A DNA stretch of 64,000 nt, taken from NCBI RefSeq assembly GCF_024502345.1, contig NZ_JALDNN010000001.1; one strand, written 5' to 3'. Under the pieces are notes generated by a model. It was not told where the DNA came from. It searched no databases and saw nothing but the letters and a program-made list of their open reading frames with translations. Numbering within the stretch: the first letter of the stretch is position 1; every line of letters starts with the position of its first letter. Both the position numbers and the translations under genes were made by a program. Source of the DNA: Escherichia coli (lineage in GTDB: Bacteria > Pseudomonadota > Gammaproteobacteria > Enterobacterales > Enterobacteriaceae). Positions 1 to 26,679 of the stretch are shown in pieces.

Positions 1-166
1 CACTTTGCGATGAAGGTGAAGCGTTGTATCACCGCATGACCGAGCAAGGAGTGCAATGTACCTGCCAACGCTACCCTGGCGTTATCCACGGATTTTTTCA
101 GTTAGGTGGTATCAGCGAGGCCGCGCGATCGGCACTACGGGATGTTGCCTGGAGAGCGGGAAGGTA
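1..166 (+). CDS. 3' end of an alpha/beta-hydrolase (esterase/lipase, HSL/Aes-like) gene; partial, start lies outside the window
   Basis: Open frame from position 3 to TAA at 164-166 gives ...LCDEGEALYHRMTEQGVQCTCQRYPGVIHGFFQLGGISEAARSALRDVAWRAGR*; a C-terminal HGF motif is typical of the catalytic His region of fold-3 esterases. Not in the ORF track because it is truncated. Confidence 0.45.
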
Positions 167-14894: not shown

Positions 14895-16298
14895 ATGTCT
14901 GACCATAATCCACTGACATTAAAACTGAATCTGCGGGAAAAAATCGCCTATGGTATGGGCGACGTTGGTTCGAATTTAATGCTTAGCATCGGTACTCTGT
15001 ATCTCCTCAAATTTTATACCGATGAATTAGGGATGCCAGCTTACTATGGCGGGATTATCTTTCTGGTGGCGAAGTTTTTTACCGCGTTTACCGATATGCT
15101 CACCGGATTTTTACTCGACTCGCGGAAAAATATTGGGCCTAAAGGCAAATTTCGTCCCTTTATTTTATATGCAGCGGTTCCGGCGGCGTTAATTGCAACG
15201 CTCCAGTTTATCGCCACCACTTTTAGTTTGCCGGTTAAAACGACGATTGCCACGGCGCTGTTTATGATGTTTGGGCTTTCATACAGTCTGATGAACTGCT
15301 CGTATGGCGCGATGATCCCGGCAATTACCAAAAACCCGAATGAGCGCGCGCAGCTCGCTGCTTACCGCCAGGGTGGTGCAACCATAGGGCTATTGATTTG
15401 TACCGTGGCGTTTATTCCGTTGCAGTCGCTTTTTTCTGACTCAACCGTCGGTTATGCCTGTGCGGCACTTATGTTCTCCATTGGCGGCTTTATTTTTATG
15501 ATGCTGTGCTACAGAGGCGTCAAAGAGCATTATGTGGACACAGCGCCAACCGGACATAAAGCCAGTATTCTCAAATCATTTTGCGCGATATTTCGGAATC
15601 CGCCATTGCTGGTTTTATGCATTGCTAACTTGTGTACCCTGGCGGCATTTAATATCAAACTGGCGATTCAGGTCTATTACACCCAGTATGTGCTGCATGA
15701 TATTAATTTATTGTCGTGGATGGGATTCTTCAGTATGGGATGCATCCTCATCGGCGTATTACTGGTGCCATTAACTGTAAAATGTTTTGGTAAAAAACAG
15801 GTTTATTTAGCTGGCATGGTGCTATGGGCGGTTGGTGATATCCTGAATTATTTCTGGGGAAGTAACTCTTTCACTTTCGTCATGTTCTCTTGTGTCGCCT
15901 TTTTTGGCACGGCCTTTGTAAACAGCCTGAACTGGGCGCTGGTACCAGATACCGTAGATTACGGTGAATGGAAAACCGGTATTCGTGCCGAAGGTTCTGT
16001 TTATACCGGTTATACCTTCTTTCGTAAAATTTCTGCCGCACTTGCTGGCTTCTTGCCAGGCATTATGCTGACGCAAATCGGTTATGTTCCCAACATCGCG
16101 CAAAGTGATGCGACATTACAGGGTTTGCGTCAGCTCATTTTTATCTGGCCTTGTGCACTGGCAATTATTGCTGCATTGACGATGGGATTCTTTTACACAC
16201 TCAATGAAAAACGGTTTGCGTTGATTATTGAGGAAATCAACCAACGCAAAAATAAAGAAATTGAGACAGAAGAAAAAACGGCTTCCGTAACGTTATAA
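14895..16298 (+). CDS. yihO: GPH-family transporter (sulfoquinovose / SQ-glycerol importer)
   Basis: Start set at ATG 14895 (MSDHNPLTLKL...) with AAGGAG 5 nt upstream; 467 aa. Confidence 0.9.
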   Translation: MSDHNPLTLKLNLREKIAYGMGDVGSNLMLSIGTLYLLKFYTDELGMPAYYGGIIFLVAKFFTAFTDMLTGFLLDSRKNIGPKGKFRPFILYAAVPAALIATLQFIATTFSLPVKTTIATALFMMFGLSYSLMNCSYGAMIPAITKNPNERAQLAAYRQGGATIGLLICTVAFIPLQSLFSDSTVGYACAALMFSIGGFIFMMLCYRGVKEHYVDTAPTGHKASILKSFCAIFRNPPLLVLCIANLCTLAAFNIKLAIQVYYTQYVLHDINLLSWMGFFSMGCILIGVLLVPLTVKCFGKKQVYLAGMVLWAVGDILNYFWGSNSFTFVMFSCVAFFGTAFVNSLNWALVPDTVDYGEWKTGIRAEGSVYTGYTFFRKISAALAGFLPGIMLTQIGYVPNIAQSDATLQGLRQLIFIWPCALAIIAALTMGFFYTLNEKRFALIIEEINQRKNKEIETEEKTASVTL

Positions 16299-20429: not shown

Positions 20430-22253
20430 TTAATCGTCTTTCGGTGCGCGGTTAGCGCGACGACGATCGTTTTCCGTCAGGTGACGTTTACGAATACGGA
20501 TAGAGGTCGGAGTCACTTCTACCAGTTCGTCATCATCGATGAACTCCAGAGCTTGTTCCAGAGTCATGCGGATAGGCGGAACCAGAACAACAGCTTCGTC
20601 AGTACCGGAAGCACGCATGTTGGTCAGTTTCTTACCGGTCAGGCAGTTTACAGTCAGGTCGTTAGAGCGGCTATGAATACCGATAATCTGACCTTCGTAA
20701 ACTTCTGCACCGTGACCGAGGAACAGCTTACCGCGATCCTGCAGACCGAACAGCGCGAACGCGACCGCTTTACCCTGACCGTTAGAGATCAGTACACCGT
20801 TCTGACGCTGACCCACTTCGCCCGGACGTACGTCGTCGTAGTGGCTGAAGGTGGAGTACAGCAGACCAGTACCGGAAGTCATGGTCATGAACTCAGAACG
20901 GAAGCCAATCAGACCACGGCTTGGGATCACGTAGTCGAGACGTACGCGGCCTTTACCGTCTGGATTCATGTTTTTCAGGTCGCCTTTACGTTCGCCCAGC
21001 GCCTGCATTACAGAACCCTGATGCTGTTCTTCAACGTCCAGAGTCACGTTTTCATATGGCTCTTGTTTACGACCGTCGATTTCACGGAAGATAACTTTCG
21101 GACGGGATACCGCCAGTTCGAAACCTTCACGACGCATGTTTTCGATCAGAACAGACAGGTGTAGTTCGCCACGACCAGAAACGCGGAACGCATCAGCGTC
21201 TTCGGTTTCTTCTACGCGCAGCGCAACGTTGTGTACCAGTTCTTTGTTCAGACGATCCAGGATCTGACGAGACGTTACGAACTTACCTTCTTTACCGCAG
21301 AACGGCGAGGTGTTAACGCAGAAGAACATAGAAACGGTCGGCTCATCAACGGAGAGTGCCGGCAGCGCTTCAACGTTTTGCGTGTCGCAAACGGTGTCAG
21401 AAATGTTCAGTTCGCCAAGGCCCGTGATCGCAACGATATCGCCAGCTTCCGCCAGATCGGTTTCGATACGTTCCAGACCGAGGTGGCCCAGCACTTTACC
21501 GACTTTCGCGTTGCGGGTTTTGCCTTCGCTATCGATGATAGTAACCTGCTGGTTCGGCTTCACTTTACCGCGCTTGATGCGGCCAATGCCGATAACGCCA
21601 ACATAGCTGTTGTAATCGAGCTGAGAAATCTGCATCTGGAACGGACCGTCAAGGTCAACGTCCGGCGCAGGAACGTGGTCAACAATCGCCTGGTACAGCG
21701 GGGTCATGTCTTCCGCCATATCTTCGTGGTCCAGACCCGCGATACCGTTCAGCGCAGAAGCGTAAACGATCGGGAAGTCCAGCTGCTCGTCGGTCGCGTC
21801 GAGGTTAACGAACAGATCGAATACCTGATCCACAACCCAATCAGGACGCGCGCCAGGGCGGTCAACTTTGTTGATAACAACAATCGGCTTCAGGCCGTAA
21901 GCAAACGCTTTTTTGGTTACGAAGCGCGTTTGCGGCATCGGGCCGTCAAATGCGTCAACCACCAGCAGCACTGAGTCTACCATGGACATTACACGTTCAA
22001 CTTCACCACCGAAGTCGGCGTGCCCCGGGGTATCAACGATGTTGATACGGTAATCATTCCATTTGATAGCGGTGTTTTTCGCGAGGATGGTAATCCCACG
22101 CTCTTTCTCCAAATCGTTGGAGTCCATCACGCGCTCTTGGGTTTCGGCACGAGAGTCGAACGTACCGGATTGTTGGAGCAGCTTGTCTACCAGGGTGGTT
22201 TTACCATGGTCTACGTGCGCGATGATGGCGATATTACGCAATTTTTCGATCAC
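20430..22253 (-). CDS. typA: Ribosome-binding translational GTPase TypA/BipA
   Basis: 607-aa ORF with G1 motif AHVDHGKTT; EF-G/LepA-like. Confidence 0.95.
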
Positions 22254-22404
22254 AACTTTGCCTCAGGCATTAGAAATAGCGCGTTATTGTACACGGATTA
22301 ATCGCACTACAAAACAGGATCACAAACATCCTCCGCAAACAAGTATTGCAGAGTCCCTTTGTGATCGCTTTCACGGAGCATAAAAAGGGTTATCCAAAGG
22401 TCAT

Positions 22405-22494
22405 TGCACCAATATAGTGCTTAATGTTTCCATTGAAGCACTATATTGGTGCAACATTCACATCGTGGTGCAGCCCTTTTGCACGATGGTGCGC
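22405..22494 (+). promoter_or_regulatory. glnA enhancer: NtrC (NRI) binding sites
   Basis: TGCACCAATATAGTGCT (22405-22421), GCACTATATTGGTGCA (22438-22453), TGGTGCAGCCCTTTTGCACGATGGTGCGC (22466-22494); each matches the TGCACC-N5-GGTGCA NtrC consensus. Confidence 0.85.
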
Positions 22495-22525
22495 ATGATA
22501 ACGCCTTTTAGGGGCAATTTAAAAG

Positions 22526-22542
22526 TTGGCACAGTTTTCGCT
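22526..22542 (+). promoter_or_regulatory. sigma54 promoter glnAp2
   Basis: TTGGCACAGTTTTCGCT: -24 GG (22528-22529) and -12 GC (22540-22541) with canonical spacing. Confidence 0.9.
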
Positions 22543-22625
22543 TTATCTTTTTTACGGCGACACGGCCAAAATAATTGCAGATTTCGTTACCACGACGACA
22601 ATGACCAATCCAGGAGAGTTAAAGT

Positions 22626-24035
22626 ATGTCCGCTGAACACGTACTGACGATGCTGAACGAGCACGAAGTGAAGTTTGTTGATTTGCGCTTCACCGATACC
22701 AAAGGTAAAGAACAGCACGTCACTATCCCTGCTCATCAGGTGAATGCTGAATTCTTCGAAGAAGGCAAAATGTTTGACGGCTCCTCGATTGGCGGCTGGA
22801 AAGGCATTAACGAATCCGACATGGTGCTGATGCCAGACGCATCCACCGCAGTGATTGACCCGTTCTTCGCCGACTCCACCCTGATTATCCGTTGCGACAT
22901 CCTTGAACCTGGCACCCTGCAAGGCTATGACCGTGACCCGCGCTCCATCGCGAAGCGCGCTGAAGATTACCTGCGTTCTACTGGCATTGCCGACACCGTA
23001 CTGTTCGGGCCAGAACCTGAATTCTTCCTGTTCGATGACATCCGTTTCGGATCATCTATCTCCGGTTCTCATGTTGCTATCGACGATATCGAAGGCGCAT
23101 GGAACTCCTCCACCCAATATGAAGGTGGTAACAAAGGTCACCGTCCGGCAGTGAAAGGCGGTTACTTCCCGGTTCCGCCGGTAGACTCTGCTCAGGATAT
23201 TCGTTCTGAAATGTGTCTGGTGATGGAACAGATGGGTCTGGTGGTTGAAGCCCATCACCACGAAGTAGCGACTGCTGGTCAGAACGAAGTGGCTACCCGC
23301 TTCAATACCATGACCAAAAAAGCTGACGAAATTCAGATCTACAAATATGTTGTGCACAACGTAGCGCACCGCTTCGGTAAAACCGCGACCTTTATGCCAA
23401 AACCGATGTTCGGTGATAACGGCTCCGGTATGCACTGCCACATGTCTCTGTCTAAAAACGGCGTTAACCTGTTCGCAGGCGACAAATACGCAGGTCTGTC
23501 TGAGCAGGCGCTGTACTACATTGGCGGCGTAATCAAACACGCTAAAGCGATTAACGCCCTGGCAAACCCGACCACCAACTCTTATAAGCGTCTGGTCCCG
23601 GGCTACGAAGCACCGGTAATGCTGGCTTACTCTGCACGCAACCGTTCTGCGTCTATCCGTATTCCGGTGGTTTCTTCTCCGAAAGCGCGTCGTATCGAAG
23701 TGCGTTTCCCGGACCCGGCGGCTAACCCGTACCTGTGCTTTGCTGCCCTGCTGATGGCCGGTCTTGATGGCATCAAGAACAAGATCCATCCGGGCGAAGC
23801 CATGGACAAAAACCTGTATGACCTGCCGCCAGAAGAAGCGAAAGAGATCCCACAAGTTGCAGGCTCTCTGGAAGAAGCACTGAACGAGCTGGATCTGGAC
23901 CGCGAGTTCCTGAAAGCCGGTGGCGTGTTCACGGATGAAGCGATCGATGCGTACATCGCTCTGCGTCGCGAAGAAGATGACCGCGTGCGTATGACTCCGC
24001 ATCCGGTAGAGTTTGAGCTGTACTACAGCGTCTAA
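22626..24035 (+). CDS. glnA: Glutamine synthetase
   Basis: 469-aa [27 protein letters not shown]...; adenylylation site Tyr within NLYDLP. Confidence 0.97.
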
Positions 24036-24095
24036 TAGTTGAAGTTGTACTACCCGGCGCAACAACGCCGGGATTTAGTTGCCGTGGAAACTTTC

Positions 24096-24121
24096 AGCCC
24101 ATCTCTGCATGGGCTTTTTTC
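24096..24121 (+). terminator. glnA rho-independent terminator (3'UTR, source of the GlnZ 3'UTR-derived sRNA)
   Basis: Hairpin AGCCCAT-CTCTGC-ATGGGCT followed by TTTTTT; a second GC hairpin CCCGGCGCAACAACGCCGGG lies at 24052-24071. Confidence 0.8.
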
Positions 24122-24165
24122 TCCGTCAATTCTCTGATGCTTCGCGCTTTTTATCCGTAAAAAGC

Positions 24166-24187
24166 TATAATGCACTAAAATGGTGCA
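24166..24187 (+). promoter_or_regulatory. glnL promoter -10 overlapped by an NtrC operator
   Basis: TATAAT at 24166-24171 overlapping TGCACTAAAATGGTGCA (24171-24187). Confidence 0.75.
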
Positions 24188-24208
24188 ACCTGTTCAGGAG
24201 ACTGCTTT

Positions 24209-25258
24209 ATGGCAACAGGCACGCAGCCCGATGCTGGGCAGATCCTCAACTCGCTGATTAACAGTATTTTGTTAATCGATGACAACCTGGCGATCCATTA
24301 CGCCAACCCCGCCGCGCAACAACTGCTCGCCCAAAGCTCCCGCAAATTGTTTGGTACGCCGTTACCGGAACTGTTGAGCTACTTCTCATTAAATATTGAG
24401 CTGATGCAAGAAAGTCTGGAGGCGGGGCAAGGTTTTACCGATAACGAAGTGACGCTGGTGATCGACGGTCGCTCGCATATCCTTTCTGTGACGGCCCAGC
24501 GTATGCCGGACGGCATGATCCTGCTGGAGATGGCGCCGATGGATAACCAGCGCCGCTTAAGTCAGGAACAGCTACAGCACGCCCAGCAGGTTGCTGCCCG
24601 TGATTTAGTGCGCGGCCTGGCACATGAGATTAAAAATCCGCTTGGCGGTTTACGTGGCGCGGCGCAGCTACTCAGCAAAGCATTACCTGACCCGTCACTA
24701 CTGGAATATACCAAAGTGATTATCGAACAGGCGGACCGGCTGCGAAATCTGGTCGACCGTCTGTTGGGGCCGCAGCTGCCCGGTACGCGCGTGACCGAAA
24801 GTATTCACAAAGTAGCTGAACGCGTGGTAACGCTGGTGTCGATGGAACTGCCGGACAACGTGCGGTTGATTCGTGATTACGATCCCAGCCTGCCGGAACT
24901 GGCGCACGACCCGGATCAAATTGAACAGGTCTTGCTGAATATTGTGCGCAATGCGCTACAGGCGCTGGGGCCGGAGGGTGGTGAAATCATTCTGCGTACC
25001 CGCACCGCGTTTCAACTGACCTTACACGGCGAGCGCTACCGGCTGGCGGCGCGGATTGATGTGGAAGATAACGGGCCAGGCATTCCGCCTCATTTGCAGG
25101 ATACGCTGTTTTACCCGATGGTCAGCGGCCGCGAAGGTGGCACCGGGCTTGGCTTATCCATCGCTCGTAATTTGATTGATCAGCATTCAGGCAAAATTGA
25201 ATTTACCAGTTGGCCAGGGCATACCGAGTTCTCGGTTTACCTGCCTATCAGGAAATAA
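24209..25258 (+). CDS. glnL: Nitrogen regulation sensor histidine kinase NtrB (NRII)
   Basis: 349-aa ORF with H-box ([11 protein letters not shown]) and ATPase G-boxes; AGGAG SD upstream. Confidence 0.95.
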
Positions 25259-25269
25259 AGGTGACGTTT

Positions 25270-26679
25270 ATGCAACGAGGGATAGTCTGGGTAGTCGATG
25301 ACGATAGTTCCATCCGTTGGGTGCTTGAACGTGCGCTCGCTGGAGCGGGTTTAACCTGTACGACATTTGAGAACGGCGCGGAGGTACTGGAGGCGCTGGC
25401 GAGCAAAACGCCGGATGTGCTGCTTTCAGATATCCGTATGCCGGGAATGGACGGGCTGGCGCTGCTCAAGCAGATTAAACAGCGCCATCCGATGCTTCCG
25501 GTCATCATTATGACCGCACATTCCGATCTGGATGCTGCCGTCAGCGCCTATCAACAAGGGGCGTTCGATTATCTGCCCAAACCGTTTGATATCGACGAAG
25601 CCGTGGCGCTGGTTGAGCGCGCCATCAGTCATTACCAGGAACAGCAGCAGCCGCGTAATGTTCAGCTTAACGGCCCAACGACCGATATCATCGGCGAAGC
25701 GCCAGCCATGCAGGACGTGTTCCGTATTATCGGTCGGCTTTCGCGTTCTTCTATTAGCGTGCTGATTAACGGCGAATCCGGTACCGGTAAAGAACTGGTC
25801 GCTCATGCCCTGCATCGCCACAGTCCGCGAGCCAAAGCGCCGTTTATCGCGCTGAATATGGCAGCTATCCCAAAAGATTTGATCGAATCAGAACTGTTTG
25901 GTCACGAGAAAGGCGCGTTTACCGGCGCGAATACCATTCGTCAGGGGCGTTTTGAACAGGCTGATGGCGGTACATTATTTCTCGATGAAATTGGCGATAT
26001 GCCGCTGGATGTGCAGACGCGTTTGCTGCGCGTGCTGGCAGACGGTCAGTTTTACCGCGTTGGCGGCTATGCGCCGGTGAAAGTGGATGTGCGGATTATC
26101 GCTGCCACTCACCAGAATCTCGAACAGCGGGTGCAGGAAGGTAAGTTCCGTGAGGATCTGTTCCACCGCCTGAACGTTATCCGCGTTCATCTGCCGCCAC
26201 TGCGTGAGCGTCGGGAAGATATTCCCCGCCTGGCACGCCATTTTTTACAGGTTGCTGCGCGCGAACTGGGCGTAGAAGCGAAGTTGCTGCATCCGGAAAC
26301 CGAAGCTGCTCTGACGCGTCTGGCGTGGCCGGGTAACGTACGCCAGCTGGAAAACACCTGTCGCTGGCTAACAGTGATGGCCGCCGGGCAGGAAGTGTTG
26401 ATTCAGGATTTGCCCGGTGAACTGTTTGAATCAACGGTTGCGGAGAGTACTTCGCAAATGCAACCGGACAGTTGGGCAACGCTGTTAGCACAGTGGGCAG
26501 ATCGGGCGCTACGTTCCGGTCATCAAAATCTGCTTTCCGAAGCGCAGCCAGAGCTGGAGCGGACGTTACTGACGACCGCGTTGCGACATACGCAGGGGCA
26601 TAAACAGGAAGCGGCGCGGCTACTCGGCTGGGGCCGCAACACTCTGACGCGTAAGTTAAAAGAGTTAGGGATGGAGTGA
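25270..26679 (+). CDS. glnG: Nitrogen regulation response regulator NtrC (NRI), sigma54 activator
   Basis: Start set at ATG 25270 ([12 protein letters not shown]...), 469 aa; receiver domain, AAA+ GAFTGA motif ([10 protein letters not shown]), C-terminal HTH. Confidence 0.95.

What the first reader, a model, noticed from the sequence alone, without database searches (positions are those of the whole stretch)
22405..22542. Complete glnA nitrogen-control architecture: NtrC enhancer sites, sigma54 glnAp2 and NtrC-occluded glnL promoter
High-affinity NtrC palindromes (TGCACC-N5-GGTGCA type) lie 30-140 bp upstream of the sigma54 promoter TTGGCACAGTTTTCGCT. A separate NtrC site (24171-24187) overlaps the -10 of the internal glnL promoter, the classic autoregulatory layout. 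The glnA 3'UTR carries a strong terminator (24096-24121), the region known to yield the 3'UTR-derived sRNA GlnZ.
Basis: partly seen in the sequence, partly recalled or inferred. Interest (0 to 1): 0.3.

Follow-up and report, generated by a model that had tools for sequence, protein, structure and literature searches.

The report
Textbook E. coli glnALG nitrogen-control region

Summary
The window is E. coli typA / glnA-glnL-glnG. All named motifs are at the stated coordinates:
- NtrC dyads at 22405-22421 and 22437-22453.
- The sigma54 promoter TTGGCACAGTTTTCGCT at 22526-22542.
- An NtrC dyad at 24171-24187, abutting a TATAAT.
- A terminator at 24096-24121.

Placing +1 at 22553 puts the dyad centres at -140 and -108 and GG/GC at -24/-12, as published for K-12 glnAp2. 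The upstream region is 98.9% identical to K-12.

Consensus counts across the 64 kb are no higher than chance. The evidence is position and conservation. In 104 Enterobacterales loci anchored only on glnA coding sequence, strict NtrC dyads occur only at about -140 and -108. In 79 of 81 loci, one dyad follows glnA.

- Only two dyads are full palindromes; nearer sites are half-sites.
- Published work calls the terminator moderate, not strong.
- The CRP site and glnAp1 were omitted.
- The 3'UTR is the 85-nt O157-type GlnZ (EsrF), not the K-12 form.

A rare site-1 allele (32 of 5426 E. coli genomes) makes sites 1 and 2 a perfect 19-bp inverted repeat. The changed position varies freely between species.

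Verdict: already known, low interest.

The parts
22360..22375 (.). CRP site TGTGA-N6-TCACG upstream of glnAp1; its centre is about -70.5 from the glnAp1 start
   Evidence: Sequence. Conservation 0.96 across 49 species. A classical CRP site upstream of glnAp1 is published (PMC1865078).
22404..22438 (+). glnAp1, a weak CRP-dependent sigma70 promoter. The -35-like TTGCAC is at 22404-22409 and the predicted start is near 22438. NtrC sites 1 and 2 overlap it.
   Evidence: Position inferred from 'glnAp1 lies 115 bp upstream of glnAp2' (PMC1865078) and the geometry. The hexamer assignment is inference; the simple sigma70 scan did not call it.
22405..22421 (.). NtrC enhancer site 1 (TGCACCAATATAGTGCT), centre -140
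   Evidence: Conserved at -143..-139 in 80 species. Carries the rare T/A allele.
22437..22453 (.). NtrC enhancer site 2 (AGCACTATATTGGTGCA), centre -108
   Evidence: Conserved at -111..-108 in 84 species.
22456..22516 (.). Low-affinity NtrC ('governor') zone. Half-sites are GGTGCA 22467-22472, TGCACG 22480-22485, GGTGCG 22488-22493 and GGGGCA 22511-22516.
   Evidence: Half-site scan. The half-sites are conserved. Low-affinity sites 3 and 4 are described in PMC3870243. The centres -89, -66 and -45 are recalled from memory, not tested here.
22526..22542 (+). glnAp2, a sigma54 (-24/-12) promoter TTGGCACAGTTTTCGCT; predicted +1 at 22553
   Evidence: A matching promoter is found in 87 of 104 species. 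Conservation 0.94. The spacer T allele is in 1348 of 5426 E. coli genomes.
22553..22625 (+). glnA 5'UTR (73 nt predicted), including a near-invariant block at 22585-22612
   Evidence: No stable fold.
22626..24035 (+). glnA, glutamine synthetase
   Evidence: NCBIfam NF007006, 1048.6 bits. RefSeq annotation of homologous loci.
24036..24120 (+). glnA 3'UTR, the O157-type / class I GlnZ sRNA (EsrF). Hairpin at 24053-24072; seed TTGCCGTGGAAA at 24079-24090.
   Evidence: 100% identical to O157:H7 (H21). EsrF is 85 nt starting at the T after the stop codon (PMC8092317). Variant types are described. The seed is present in 73 of 81 species. Fold.
24096..24121 (+). Intrinsic terminator of glnA/GlnZ: 7-bp stem, 6-nt loop, T6
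   Evidence: Invariant across the three E. coli 3'UTR types.
24166..24187 (+). glnLp -10 TATAAT (24166-24171) abutting the NtrC operator TGCACTAAAATGGTGCA (24171-24187)
   Evidence: In 79 of 81 species there is one strict NtrC dyad after glnA, mostly preceded directly by TATAAT, TATACT or TACAAT. NtrC represses glnLp (PMC3870243, PMC9731577).
24209..25258 (+). glnL (NtrB / NRII sensor kinase)
   Evidence: NF008293, 700.8 bits.
25270..26679 (+). glnG (NtrC / NRI, the sigma54 activator that binds the sites above)
   Evidence: NF008176, 1051.7 bits.
22335..22442 (-). Full-length Rfam ES222 sRNA match on the opposite (typA-sense) strand, overlapping the CRP site and NtrC site 1
   Evidence: 129.9 bits against a gathering score of 62. 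Function unknown. No convincing promoter was seen by eye in the minus-strand sequence upstream of its 5' end.

Best explanation
This is the canonical Escherichia coli glnALG control region.

Under nitrogen limitation:
- NtrB (glnL) phosphorylates NtrC (glnG).
- NtrC~P assembles on the two dyads centred at -140 and -108.
- It contacts sigma54-RNA polymerase bound at the -24/-12 promoter glnAp2 by DNA looping, and drives open-complex formation by ATP hydrolysis.
- The same two dyads cover the -35 and start of the weak CRP-dependent sigma70 promoter glnAp1, and shut it off.
- The half-sites between -90 and -45 are the low-affinity 'governor' sites. They cap output when NtrC~P is high.

Downstream of glnA:
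- Transcription mostly ends at an intrinsic terminator.
- The 85-nt 3'UTR is released as the Hfq-dependent sRNA GlnZ (O157 type, also called EsrF). Its seed UUGCCGUGGAAA represses sucA and glnP.
- A third NtrC dyad abuts the -10 of glnLp and covers its predicted start, so NtrC represses its own basal promoter.

Shown here: the sequences, their geometry, their conservation and the gene identities.
Taken from the literature on K-12 and O157: binding, sigma54 dependence, looping, RNase E processing and the sRNA targets.
For: Locus identity:
- The genes are typA, glnA, glnL and glnG.
- The upstream 372 bp is 98.9% identical to K-12 and 99.7% identical to the nearest complete genomes.

Geometry:
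- A single choice of +1 (22553) gives dyad centres at -140 and -108, GG at -25/-24, GC at -13/-12 and a 73-nt leader.
- These match the published values (PMC1865078).

Whole-window scan:
- The three best matches to the NtrC consensus in 64 kb are exactly the three named sites.

Phylogenetic footprint, anchored only on a glnA coding pattern:
- 87 of 104 species have the sigma54 promoter.
- Of 193 strict GCAC-N7-GTGC dyads, the 164 in the promoter-bearing species all lie at -143..-139 (80) or -111..-108 (84). Chance expectation is about 0.006 per 420 bp.
- 79 of 81 species have one dyad after glnA, usually fused to a -10-like hexamer. 73 of 81 carry the GlnZ seed about 90 nt upstream of that dyad.
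- Element conservation is 0.90-0.96, against 0.6 for the spacers.

3'UTR:
- It is 100% identical to O157:H7.
- Its length and seed match the published O157-type GlnZ / EsrF.
Against: - Nothing here measures binding or transcription in this strain.
- Consensus-match counts over the window equal chance expectation, so the motif scan alone proves nothing.
- The simple sigma70 scan called neither glnAp1 nor glnLp. Both have poor -35 elements.
- Site 1 carries G>A at a consensus position (22416), a rare allele in E. coli (32 of 5426 genomes).
- One paper (PMC8092317) reports that EsrF has its own promoter and is induced by high ammonium. This conflicts with the processing model of the two GlnZ papers.
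Confidence: 0.97

Rival explanations
1. The motifs are chance matches to short degenerate consensus sequences with no regulatory role.
For: Whole-window counts are no higher than dinucleotide-shuffle expectation: 3 against 3.35 for NtrC at <=2 mismatches, and 3 against 3.21 for sigma54 at <=1 mismatch.
Against: - All three NtrC hits sit at gln promoters.
- The region is orthologous to the footprinted K-12 region.
- The dyads stay at fixed distances in about 80 species, where chance expects 0.006 per region.
- The motifs are conserved while the spacers between them are not.
Confidence: 0.005
2. The rare site-1 allele (C>T at 22413, G>A at 22416 relative to K-12) weakens or rewires the enhancer. 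This lineage would then have an altered nitrogen response, or altered glnAp1 activity or cruciform potential from the perfect 19-bp inverted repeat.
For: - The G>A raises the mismatch count of site 1 from 1 to 2.
- The allele is in only 32 of 5426 complete E. coli genomes; the 20 listed are O145 or O145:H28 strains. The C/G allele is in 3038 genomes and T/G in 2343.
- It creates a perfect 19-bp inverted repeat, 22404-22422 / 22436-22454.
- The single-strand hairpin energy falls from -17.3 to -22.5 kcal/mol.
Against: - Across species that position is G in 41 and A in 36 of 80, so it is not constrained.
- The variant site 1 is the exact reverse complement of site 2, itself a published high-affinity site. 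A symmetric dimer should bind both alike (inference).
- The invariant GCAC/GTGC cores are intact.
Confidence: 0.07
3. The 3'UTR RNA is a primary transcript (EsrF) from its own promoter inside the end of glnA. NtrC would repress it through TCACGGATGAAGC (window 23929-23941) and high ammonium would induce it, rather than it being processed from the NtrC-activated glnA mRNA.
For: PMC8092317 reports TEX resistance, expression after deleting the glnA promoter, and EMSA. The 13-mer is present in the window at -107..-95 from 24036.
Against: - Two independent studies found that low nitrogen induces O157 EsrF/GlnZ and that RNase E generates it from glnA mRNA.
- The 13-mer does not resemble the NtrC dyad; no match at <=4 mismatches was reported there.
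- No sigma70-like promoter was called in that stretch.
Confidence: 0.1

Closest known systems
E. coli K-12 glnALG control region (glnAp1, glnAp2, glnLp; Reitzer and Magasanik, Ninfa, Ueno-Nishio)
   Same: Same genes and order. Same CRP site, NtrC sites 1 and 2 at -140 and -108, half-site zone, sigma54 promoter, glnLp -10 fused to an NtrC dyad, and terminator. The upstream 372 bp is 98.9% identical.
   Different: - Four SNPs: 22413 and 22416 in site 1, 22535 in the sigma54 spacer, and 22600 in the leader.
- The glnA-glnL spacer is 173 bp here and 285 bp in K-12, because K-12 carries a REP-containing insertion in the 3'UTR.
O157-type / class I GlnZ (EsrF of EHEC O157:H7)
   Same: The glnA-glnL intergenic region is 100% identical to O157:H7 and UTI89. 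It has the 85-nt 3'UTR, with the seed directly before the terminator.
   Different: None in sequence. The biogenesis of EsrF is disputed in the literature: own promoter versus RNase E processing.
Other NtrC/sigma54 promoters of the Ntr regulon (glnHp2, glnK, nac)
   Same: A remote NtrC dyad pair activating a -24/-12 promoter. glnH also has a tandem p1/p2 layout (PMC3870243).
   Different: The literature groups glnAp2 with IHF-independent promoters (PMC2709558, title and abstract). No IHF test was done here. glnAp2 also has the governor half-sites.
Rfam Ysr49 (Yersinia sRNA 49, RF02766)
   Same: It starts at the first base after the glnA stop codon in Y. pestis and Y. similis. It carries the GlnZ seed and terminator. 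The window 3'UTR aligns to it through the seed and terminator.
   Different: [quoted passage not shown] The window scores only 34 bits, below the gathering score of 95.

Membership tests
sigma54 (-24/-12) promoter | GG and GC doublets exactly 10 bp apart in a TGGCAC-N5-TTGC context, upstream of the regulated gene | tested here: met
   TGGCACAGTTTTCGCT at 22527-22542, 1 mismatch. It lies 84 bp before the glnA ATG. The same element is found in 87 of 104 species.
sigma54 (-24/-12) promoter | Transcription depends on RpoN and an ATP-hydrolysing enhancer-binding protein | not testable with these tools
   Published for K-12 glnAp2 (PMC1865078). The activator gene glnG is intact in the window. rpoN is not in the window.
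NtrC enhancer (upstream activating sites) | Dyad TGCACC-N5-GGTGCA with invariant GCAC/GTGC cores | tested here: met
   Two dyads with 2 mismatches each. The cores are invariant in 80 of 80 species.
NtrC enhancer (upstream activating sites) | A pair of sites about three helical turns apart, more than 100 bp upstream of +1 | tested here: met
   Centres at 22413 and 22445, 32 bp apart, at -140 and -108. The same spacing holds across species.
NtrC enhancer (upstream activating sites) | NtrC~P binds and activates from these sites | not testable with these tools
   Published for the K-12 sequence. The window's site 1 differs from K-12 by 2 bases.
glnLp, an NtrC-autorepressed sigma70 promoter | A -10 hexamer overlapped by, or abutting, an NtrC dyad between glnA and glnL | tested here: met
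   TATAAT at 24166-24171 shares its last T with the dyad at 24171-24187. The pattern recurs in most of 79 species.
glnLp, an NtrC-autorepressed sigma70 promoter | A recognisable -35 element | tested here: not met
   The scan requiring >=4 of 6 matches in each hexamer did not call it. No good TTGACA-like hexamer lies at 16-19 bp spacing, as read. This is consistent with a weak basal promoter.
GlnZ 3'UTR-derived sRNA (O157 type / class I) | [quoted passage not shown] | tested here: met
   Seed at 24079-24090, terminator at 24096-24121, 3'UTR 85-86 nt. 100% identical to O157:H7.
GlnZ 3'UTR-derived sRNA (O157 type / class I) | Released by RNase E, Hfq-dependent, represses sucA and glnP | not testable with these tools
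   Published for the K-12, O157 and Salmonella forms.
glnAp1, a CRP-dependent sigma70 promoter | A CRP site TGTGA-N6-TCACA upstream of a start about 115 bp before glnAp2, overlapped by NtrC sites | tested here: met
   TGTGATCGCTTTCACG at 22360-22375. The predicted start at 22438 lies inside site 2, and the -35-like TTGCAC lies inside site 1 (PMC1865078).

The most novel reading that the evidence does not exclude
The control architecture may not be fully catalogued.

(a) A roughly 28-nt unstructured, C/A-rich block of the glnA leader (22585-22612) is conserved as strongly as the NtrC sites across Enterobacterales and has no assigned function. It could be the cis element for the translational control of glnA recently reported in a preprint.

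(b) The rare site-1 allele makes NtrC sites 1 and 2 a perfect 19-bp inverted repeat. It could shift the enhancer or glnAp1 set-point in this lineage and in O145:H28.
Probability: 0.12. Interest if true: 0.35.

Novelty: already known. Interest (0 to 1): 0.07.

Why it matters
This is the founding example of bacterial enhancer-dependent transcription, so finding it intact says nothing new about mechanism.

Its practical uses are modest:
- It anchors the annotation of this window as E. coli, with an O157-type glnA 3'UTR.
- It serves as a positive control showing that the first-stage reader can recognise real regulatory architecture.
- It illustrates that consensus counts alone do not separate real sites from chance. 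Position and cross-species conservation do.

Three small by-products may help curators:
- The population frequencies of the site-1 alleles, the sigma54-spacer T allele and the short versus K-12-type 3'UTR forms.
- The equivalence of Rfam Ysr49 with GlnZ.
- A strongly conserved leader block with no assigned function.

Tried and rejected
1. Recurrent template-switch mutation. I asked whether the two site-1 changes that perfect the inverted repeat arose by repeated quasi-palindrome template switching.
   - The window is identical to O145:H28 over 21433-22464 and to its other nearest relative over 22417-23476.
   - The allele is therefore more simply shared by descent with a recombination junction nearby. 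The T-only intermediate is also common (2343 genomes).
2. A damaging G>A at 22416. Rejected: the position is G in 41 and A in 36 of 80 species, and the variant equals site 2 reversed.
3. A dedicated GlnZ family in Rfam 15. None matched; the only hits were a sub-threshold Ysr49 hit and chance miRNA-precursor hits caused by the site 1/2 inverted repeat.
4. The origin of ES222. A full-text search for the name found nothing relevant. A candidate source paper uses different names (ECS001-229). No convincing sigma70 promoter precedes its 5' end on the minus strand.
5. A structure in the glnA leader. None was found (z = +0.5).
6. Published sRNA control of the glnA leader. A literature search combining GcvB, glnA and RIL-seq turned up nothing in the listed titles and abstracts.
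7. The other two sigma54 consensus hits (52-67 and 15905-15920). The one at 15905-15920 lies inside a 469-aa ORF. The one at 52-67 was not examined. Neither has NtrC dyads nearby.

Full report
**What is there**

The window around the finding reads typA (minus strand, 20430-22253), then glnA (22626-24035), glnL (24209-25258) and glnG (25270-26679) on the plus strand.
- All four proteins are full-length equivalog matches in NCBIfam: glutamate-ammonia ligase, NR(II), NR(I) and TypA.
- RefSeq annotates the homologous E. coli loci the same way.
- The 372-bp typA-glnA spacer matches 5425 of 5426 complete E. coli genomes. The best identity is 99.7% and K-12 derivatives score 98.9%.
- A 12-kb stretch is at best 99.6% identical to any complete genome. 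The source is therefore E. coli, from a lineage not exactly represented in that collection.

**Check of the observation**

Every quoted sequence is at the stated coordinates.
- NtrC-type dyads lie at 22405-22421 and 22437-22453.
- TTGGCACAGTTTTCGCT lies at 22526-22542.
- A dyad at 24171-24187 has its first T as the last T of TATAAT (24166-24171).
- A hairpin with a 7-bp stem, a 6-nt loop and T6 lies at 24096-24121.

A single assumption, +1 at 22553, puts the dyad centres at -140 and -108, GG at -25/-24 and GC at -13/-12, and gives a 73-nt leader. These are the values published for K-12 glnAp2, with glnAp1 115 bp further upstream (PMC1865078).

**Is it more than chance?**

The consensus counts are not. 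In the 64-kb window there are 3 NtrC matches at <=2 mismatches against 3.35 expected. There are 3 sigma54 matches at <=1 mismatch against 3.21 expected.

Placement and conservation are what count.
- The three best matches to the NtrC consensus in the whole window are exactly the three named sites.
- I fetched 120 Enterobacterales loci using only a degenerate pattern from glnA codons 11-25, so the regulatory motifs did not bias the sample.
- Of 104 usable upstream regions, 87 have a TGGCA[CT]-N5-T[TC]GC promoter.
- There are 193 strict GCAC-N7-GTGC dyads in all. The 164 in the promoter-bearing species all lie at -143..-139 (80 cases) or -111..-108 (84 cases) from the predicted start. Chance expects about 0.006 per 420 bp.
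- Downstream of glnA, 79 of 81 regions have exactly one strict dyad. Most are preceded directly by TATAAT, TATACT or TACAAT.
- 73 of 81 carry the GlnZ seed TTGCCGTGGAAA, typically about 90 nt before that dyad.
- In 49 non-redundant close species, conservation is 0.96 for the CRP site, 0.90 for site 1, 0.93 for site 2 and 0.94 for the sigma54 promoter. The spacers between them score 0.6.

1. Only sites 1 and 2 are full palindromes. They lie 73-121 bp upstream of the promoter's 5' edge. Between -90 and -45 there are only half-sites: GGTGCA 22467-22472, TGCACG 22480-22485, GGTGCG 22488-22493 and GGGGCA 22511-22516. These correspond to the low-affinity 'governor' sites (PMC3870243).
2. The architecture is not 'complete' as described. 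The classical CRP site (22360-22375) and the sigma70 promoter glnAp1 were omitted. NtrC sites 1 and 2 overlap the -35-like TTGCAC and the predicted start of glnAp1.
3. Published work calls the terminator 'moderate', not strong (PMC9731577).
4. The 3'UTR is not the K-12 form.
   - The glnA-glnL spacer is 173 bp here, against 285 bp in K-12 and 318 bp in a third type.
   - It is 100% identical to O157:H7 and UTI89.
   - This is the 85-nt 'O157 type' or class I GlnZ, first described as EsrF, with the seed directly before the terminator.
   - The short form, or the insertion-bearing form that contains it, covers at least 80% of the query in 3850 of 5425 genomes. The K-12 type accounts for the rest.

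**Mechanism**

The sequences, geometry and conservation are shown here. The biochemistry comes from the literature on K-12 and O157.
- Under nitrogen limitation NtrB phosphorylates NtrC.
- NtrC~P oligomerises on the -140 and -108 dyads. It loops to sigma54-holoenzyme at glnAp2 and drives open-complex formation.
- The same dyads repress glnAp1.
- The half-site zone limits output when NtrC~P is high.
- CRP activates glnAp1 and can dampen glnAp2.
- Most transcripts end at the terminator. The 3'UTR is released as GlnZ, which represses sucA and glnP.
- The dyad at glnLp lets NtrC repress its own basal promoter.

One published disagreement remains. Jia et al. (PMC8092317) report that EsrF has its own promoter and is induced by high ammonium. 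Two later studies find induction by low nitrogen, and one of them shows RNase E processing from glnA mRNA.

**Differences from K-12**

There are four SNPs in the upstream region.
- 22413 C>T and 22416 G>A, both in site 1.
- 22535 A>T in the non-conserved sigma54 spacer. The window's T allele is in 1348 of 5426 genomes and in 10 of 87 species.
- 22600 C>A in the leader.

The site-1 allele:
- It makes sites 1 and 2 a perfect 19-bp inverted repeat. The single-strand hairpin energy is -22.5 kcal/mol, against -17.3 in K-12.
- It is rare in E. coli: 32 genomes, and the 20 listed are O145 or O145:H28 strains. The C/G allele is in 3038 genomes and T/G in 2343.
- Across species the 22416 position is G in 41 and A in 36 of 80.
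- The variant is simply site 2 reversed, so a functional effect is unlikely.

The window is identical to O145:H28 over 21433-22464 and to its other closest relative over 22417-23476. This points to a mosaic haplotype rather than a recurrent mutation.

**Comparison with known systems and verdict**

Every sequence-level defining feature tested was met, for the sigma54 promoter class, the NtrC enhancer, glnAp1, glnLp and O157-type GlnZ. The one exception is a recognisable -35 for glnLp, which fits a weak basal promoter.

This is the textbook system. It is already known, and interest is low.

**Seen in passing**

- A full-length Rfam ES222 match lies on the opposite strand across the CRP site and NtrC site 1.
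- Rfam Ysr49 is the Yersinia GlnZ orthologue.
- A near-invariant, unstructured block sits in the glnA leader. It may relate to a translational control of glnA reported in a preprint.
- O145:H28 carries four substitutions in the low-affinity NtrC zone.

Noticed in passing
window 22335-22442, minus strand: A full-length match to Rfam ES222 sRNA (129.9 bits, gathering score 62) lies on the typA-sense strand. It overlaps the CRP site and NtrC site 1 and ends inside site 2. Its first hairpin is the site 1/site 2 inverted repeat. I found no clear promoter and no source paper; it may be a typA leader fragment.
   Followed up: partly
window 22585-22612 (glnA 5'UTR): The block TTCGTTACCACGACGACAATGACCAATCC is nearly invariant in 49 close species and recognisable out to Yersinia and Serratia. 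That is as conserved as the NtrC sites, yet the leader has no stable fold (z = +0.5). I found no assigned function. A preprint (10.1101/2023.01.17.524496) reports an undescribed translational control of glnA.
   Followed up: partly
L107 3863-3986 (Y. pestis); L086 5303-5426 (Y. similis); window 24016-24120: Rfam family Ysr49 (RF02766) starts at the first base after the glnA stop codon and contains the GlnZ seed and terminator, so it is the Yersinia GlnZ orthologue. Neither GlnZ paper mentions it, and no Rfam GlnZ family matched the window.
   Followed up: yes
L004 (E. coli O145 RM9872), positions equivalent to window 22465, 22489, 22491 and 22492: The O145 strain shares the rare site-1 allele. 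It also has four substitutions in the low-affinity NtrC zone, changing ATGGTGCG to ATGTTAAG and destroying one half-site. This could alter the 'governor' function in that pathotype.
   Followed up: no
window 24036-24208 compared with L001 4283-4567 and L003 301-618: E. coli has three glnA-glnL spacer lengths (173, 285 and 318 bp), caused by insertions in the 3'UTR. The terminator, glnLp and the NtrC operator are invariant across all three. The short form, or the insertion-bearing form that contains it, covers at least 80% of the query in 3850 of 5425 genomes.
   Followed up: yes
window 21433-23476: The local haplotype is mosaic. It is identical to O145:H28 over 21433-22464 and to strain GDSC2227PM over 22417-23476, which implies a recombination junction inside the glnA regulatory region.
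   Followed up: partly
window 23929-23941: The 13-mer TCACGGATGAAGC that Jia et al. proposed as an NtrC site controlling EsrF is present inside the end of glnA. It does not resemble the NtrC dyad.
   Followed up: partly
window 15905-15920 (+) and 52-67 (-): These are the other two one-mismatch matches to the sigma54 consensus. The first lies inside a 469-aa ORF. Neither has an NtrC dyad nearby, so they are probably chance matches.
   Followed up: partly
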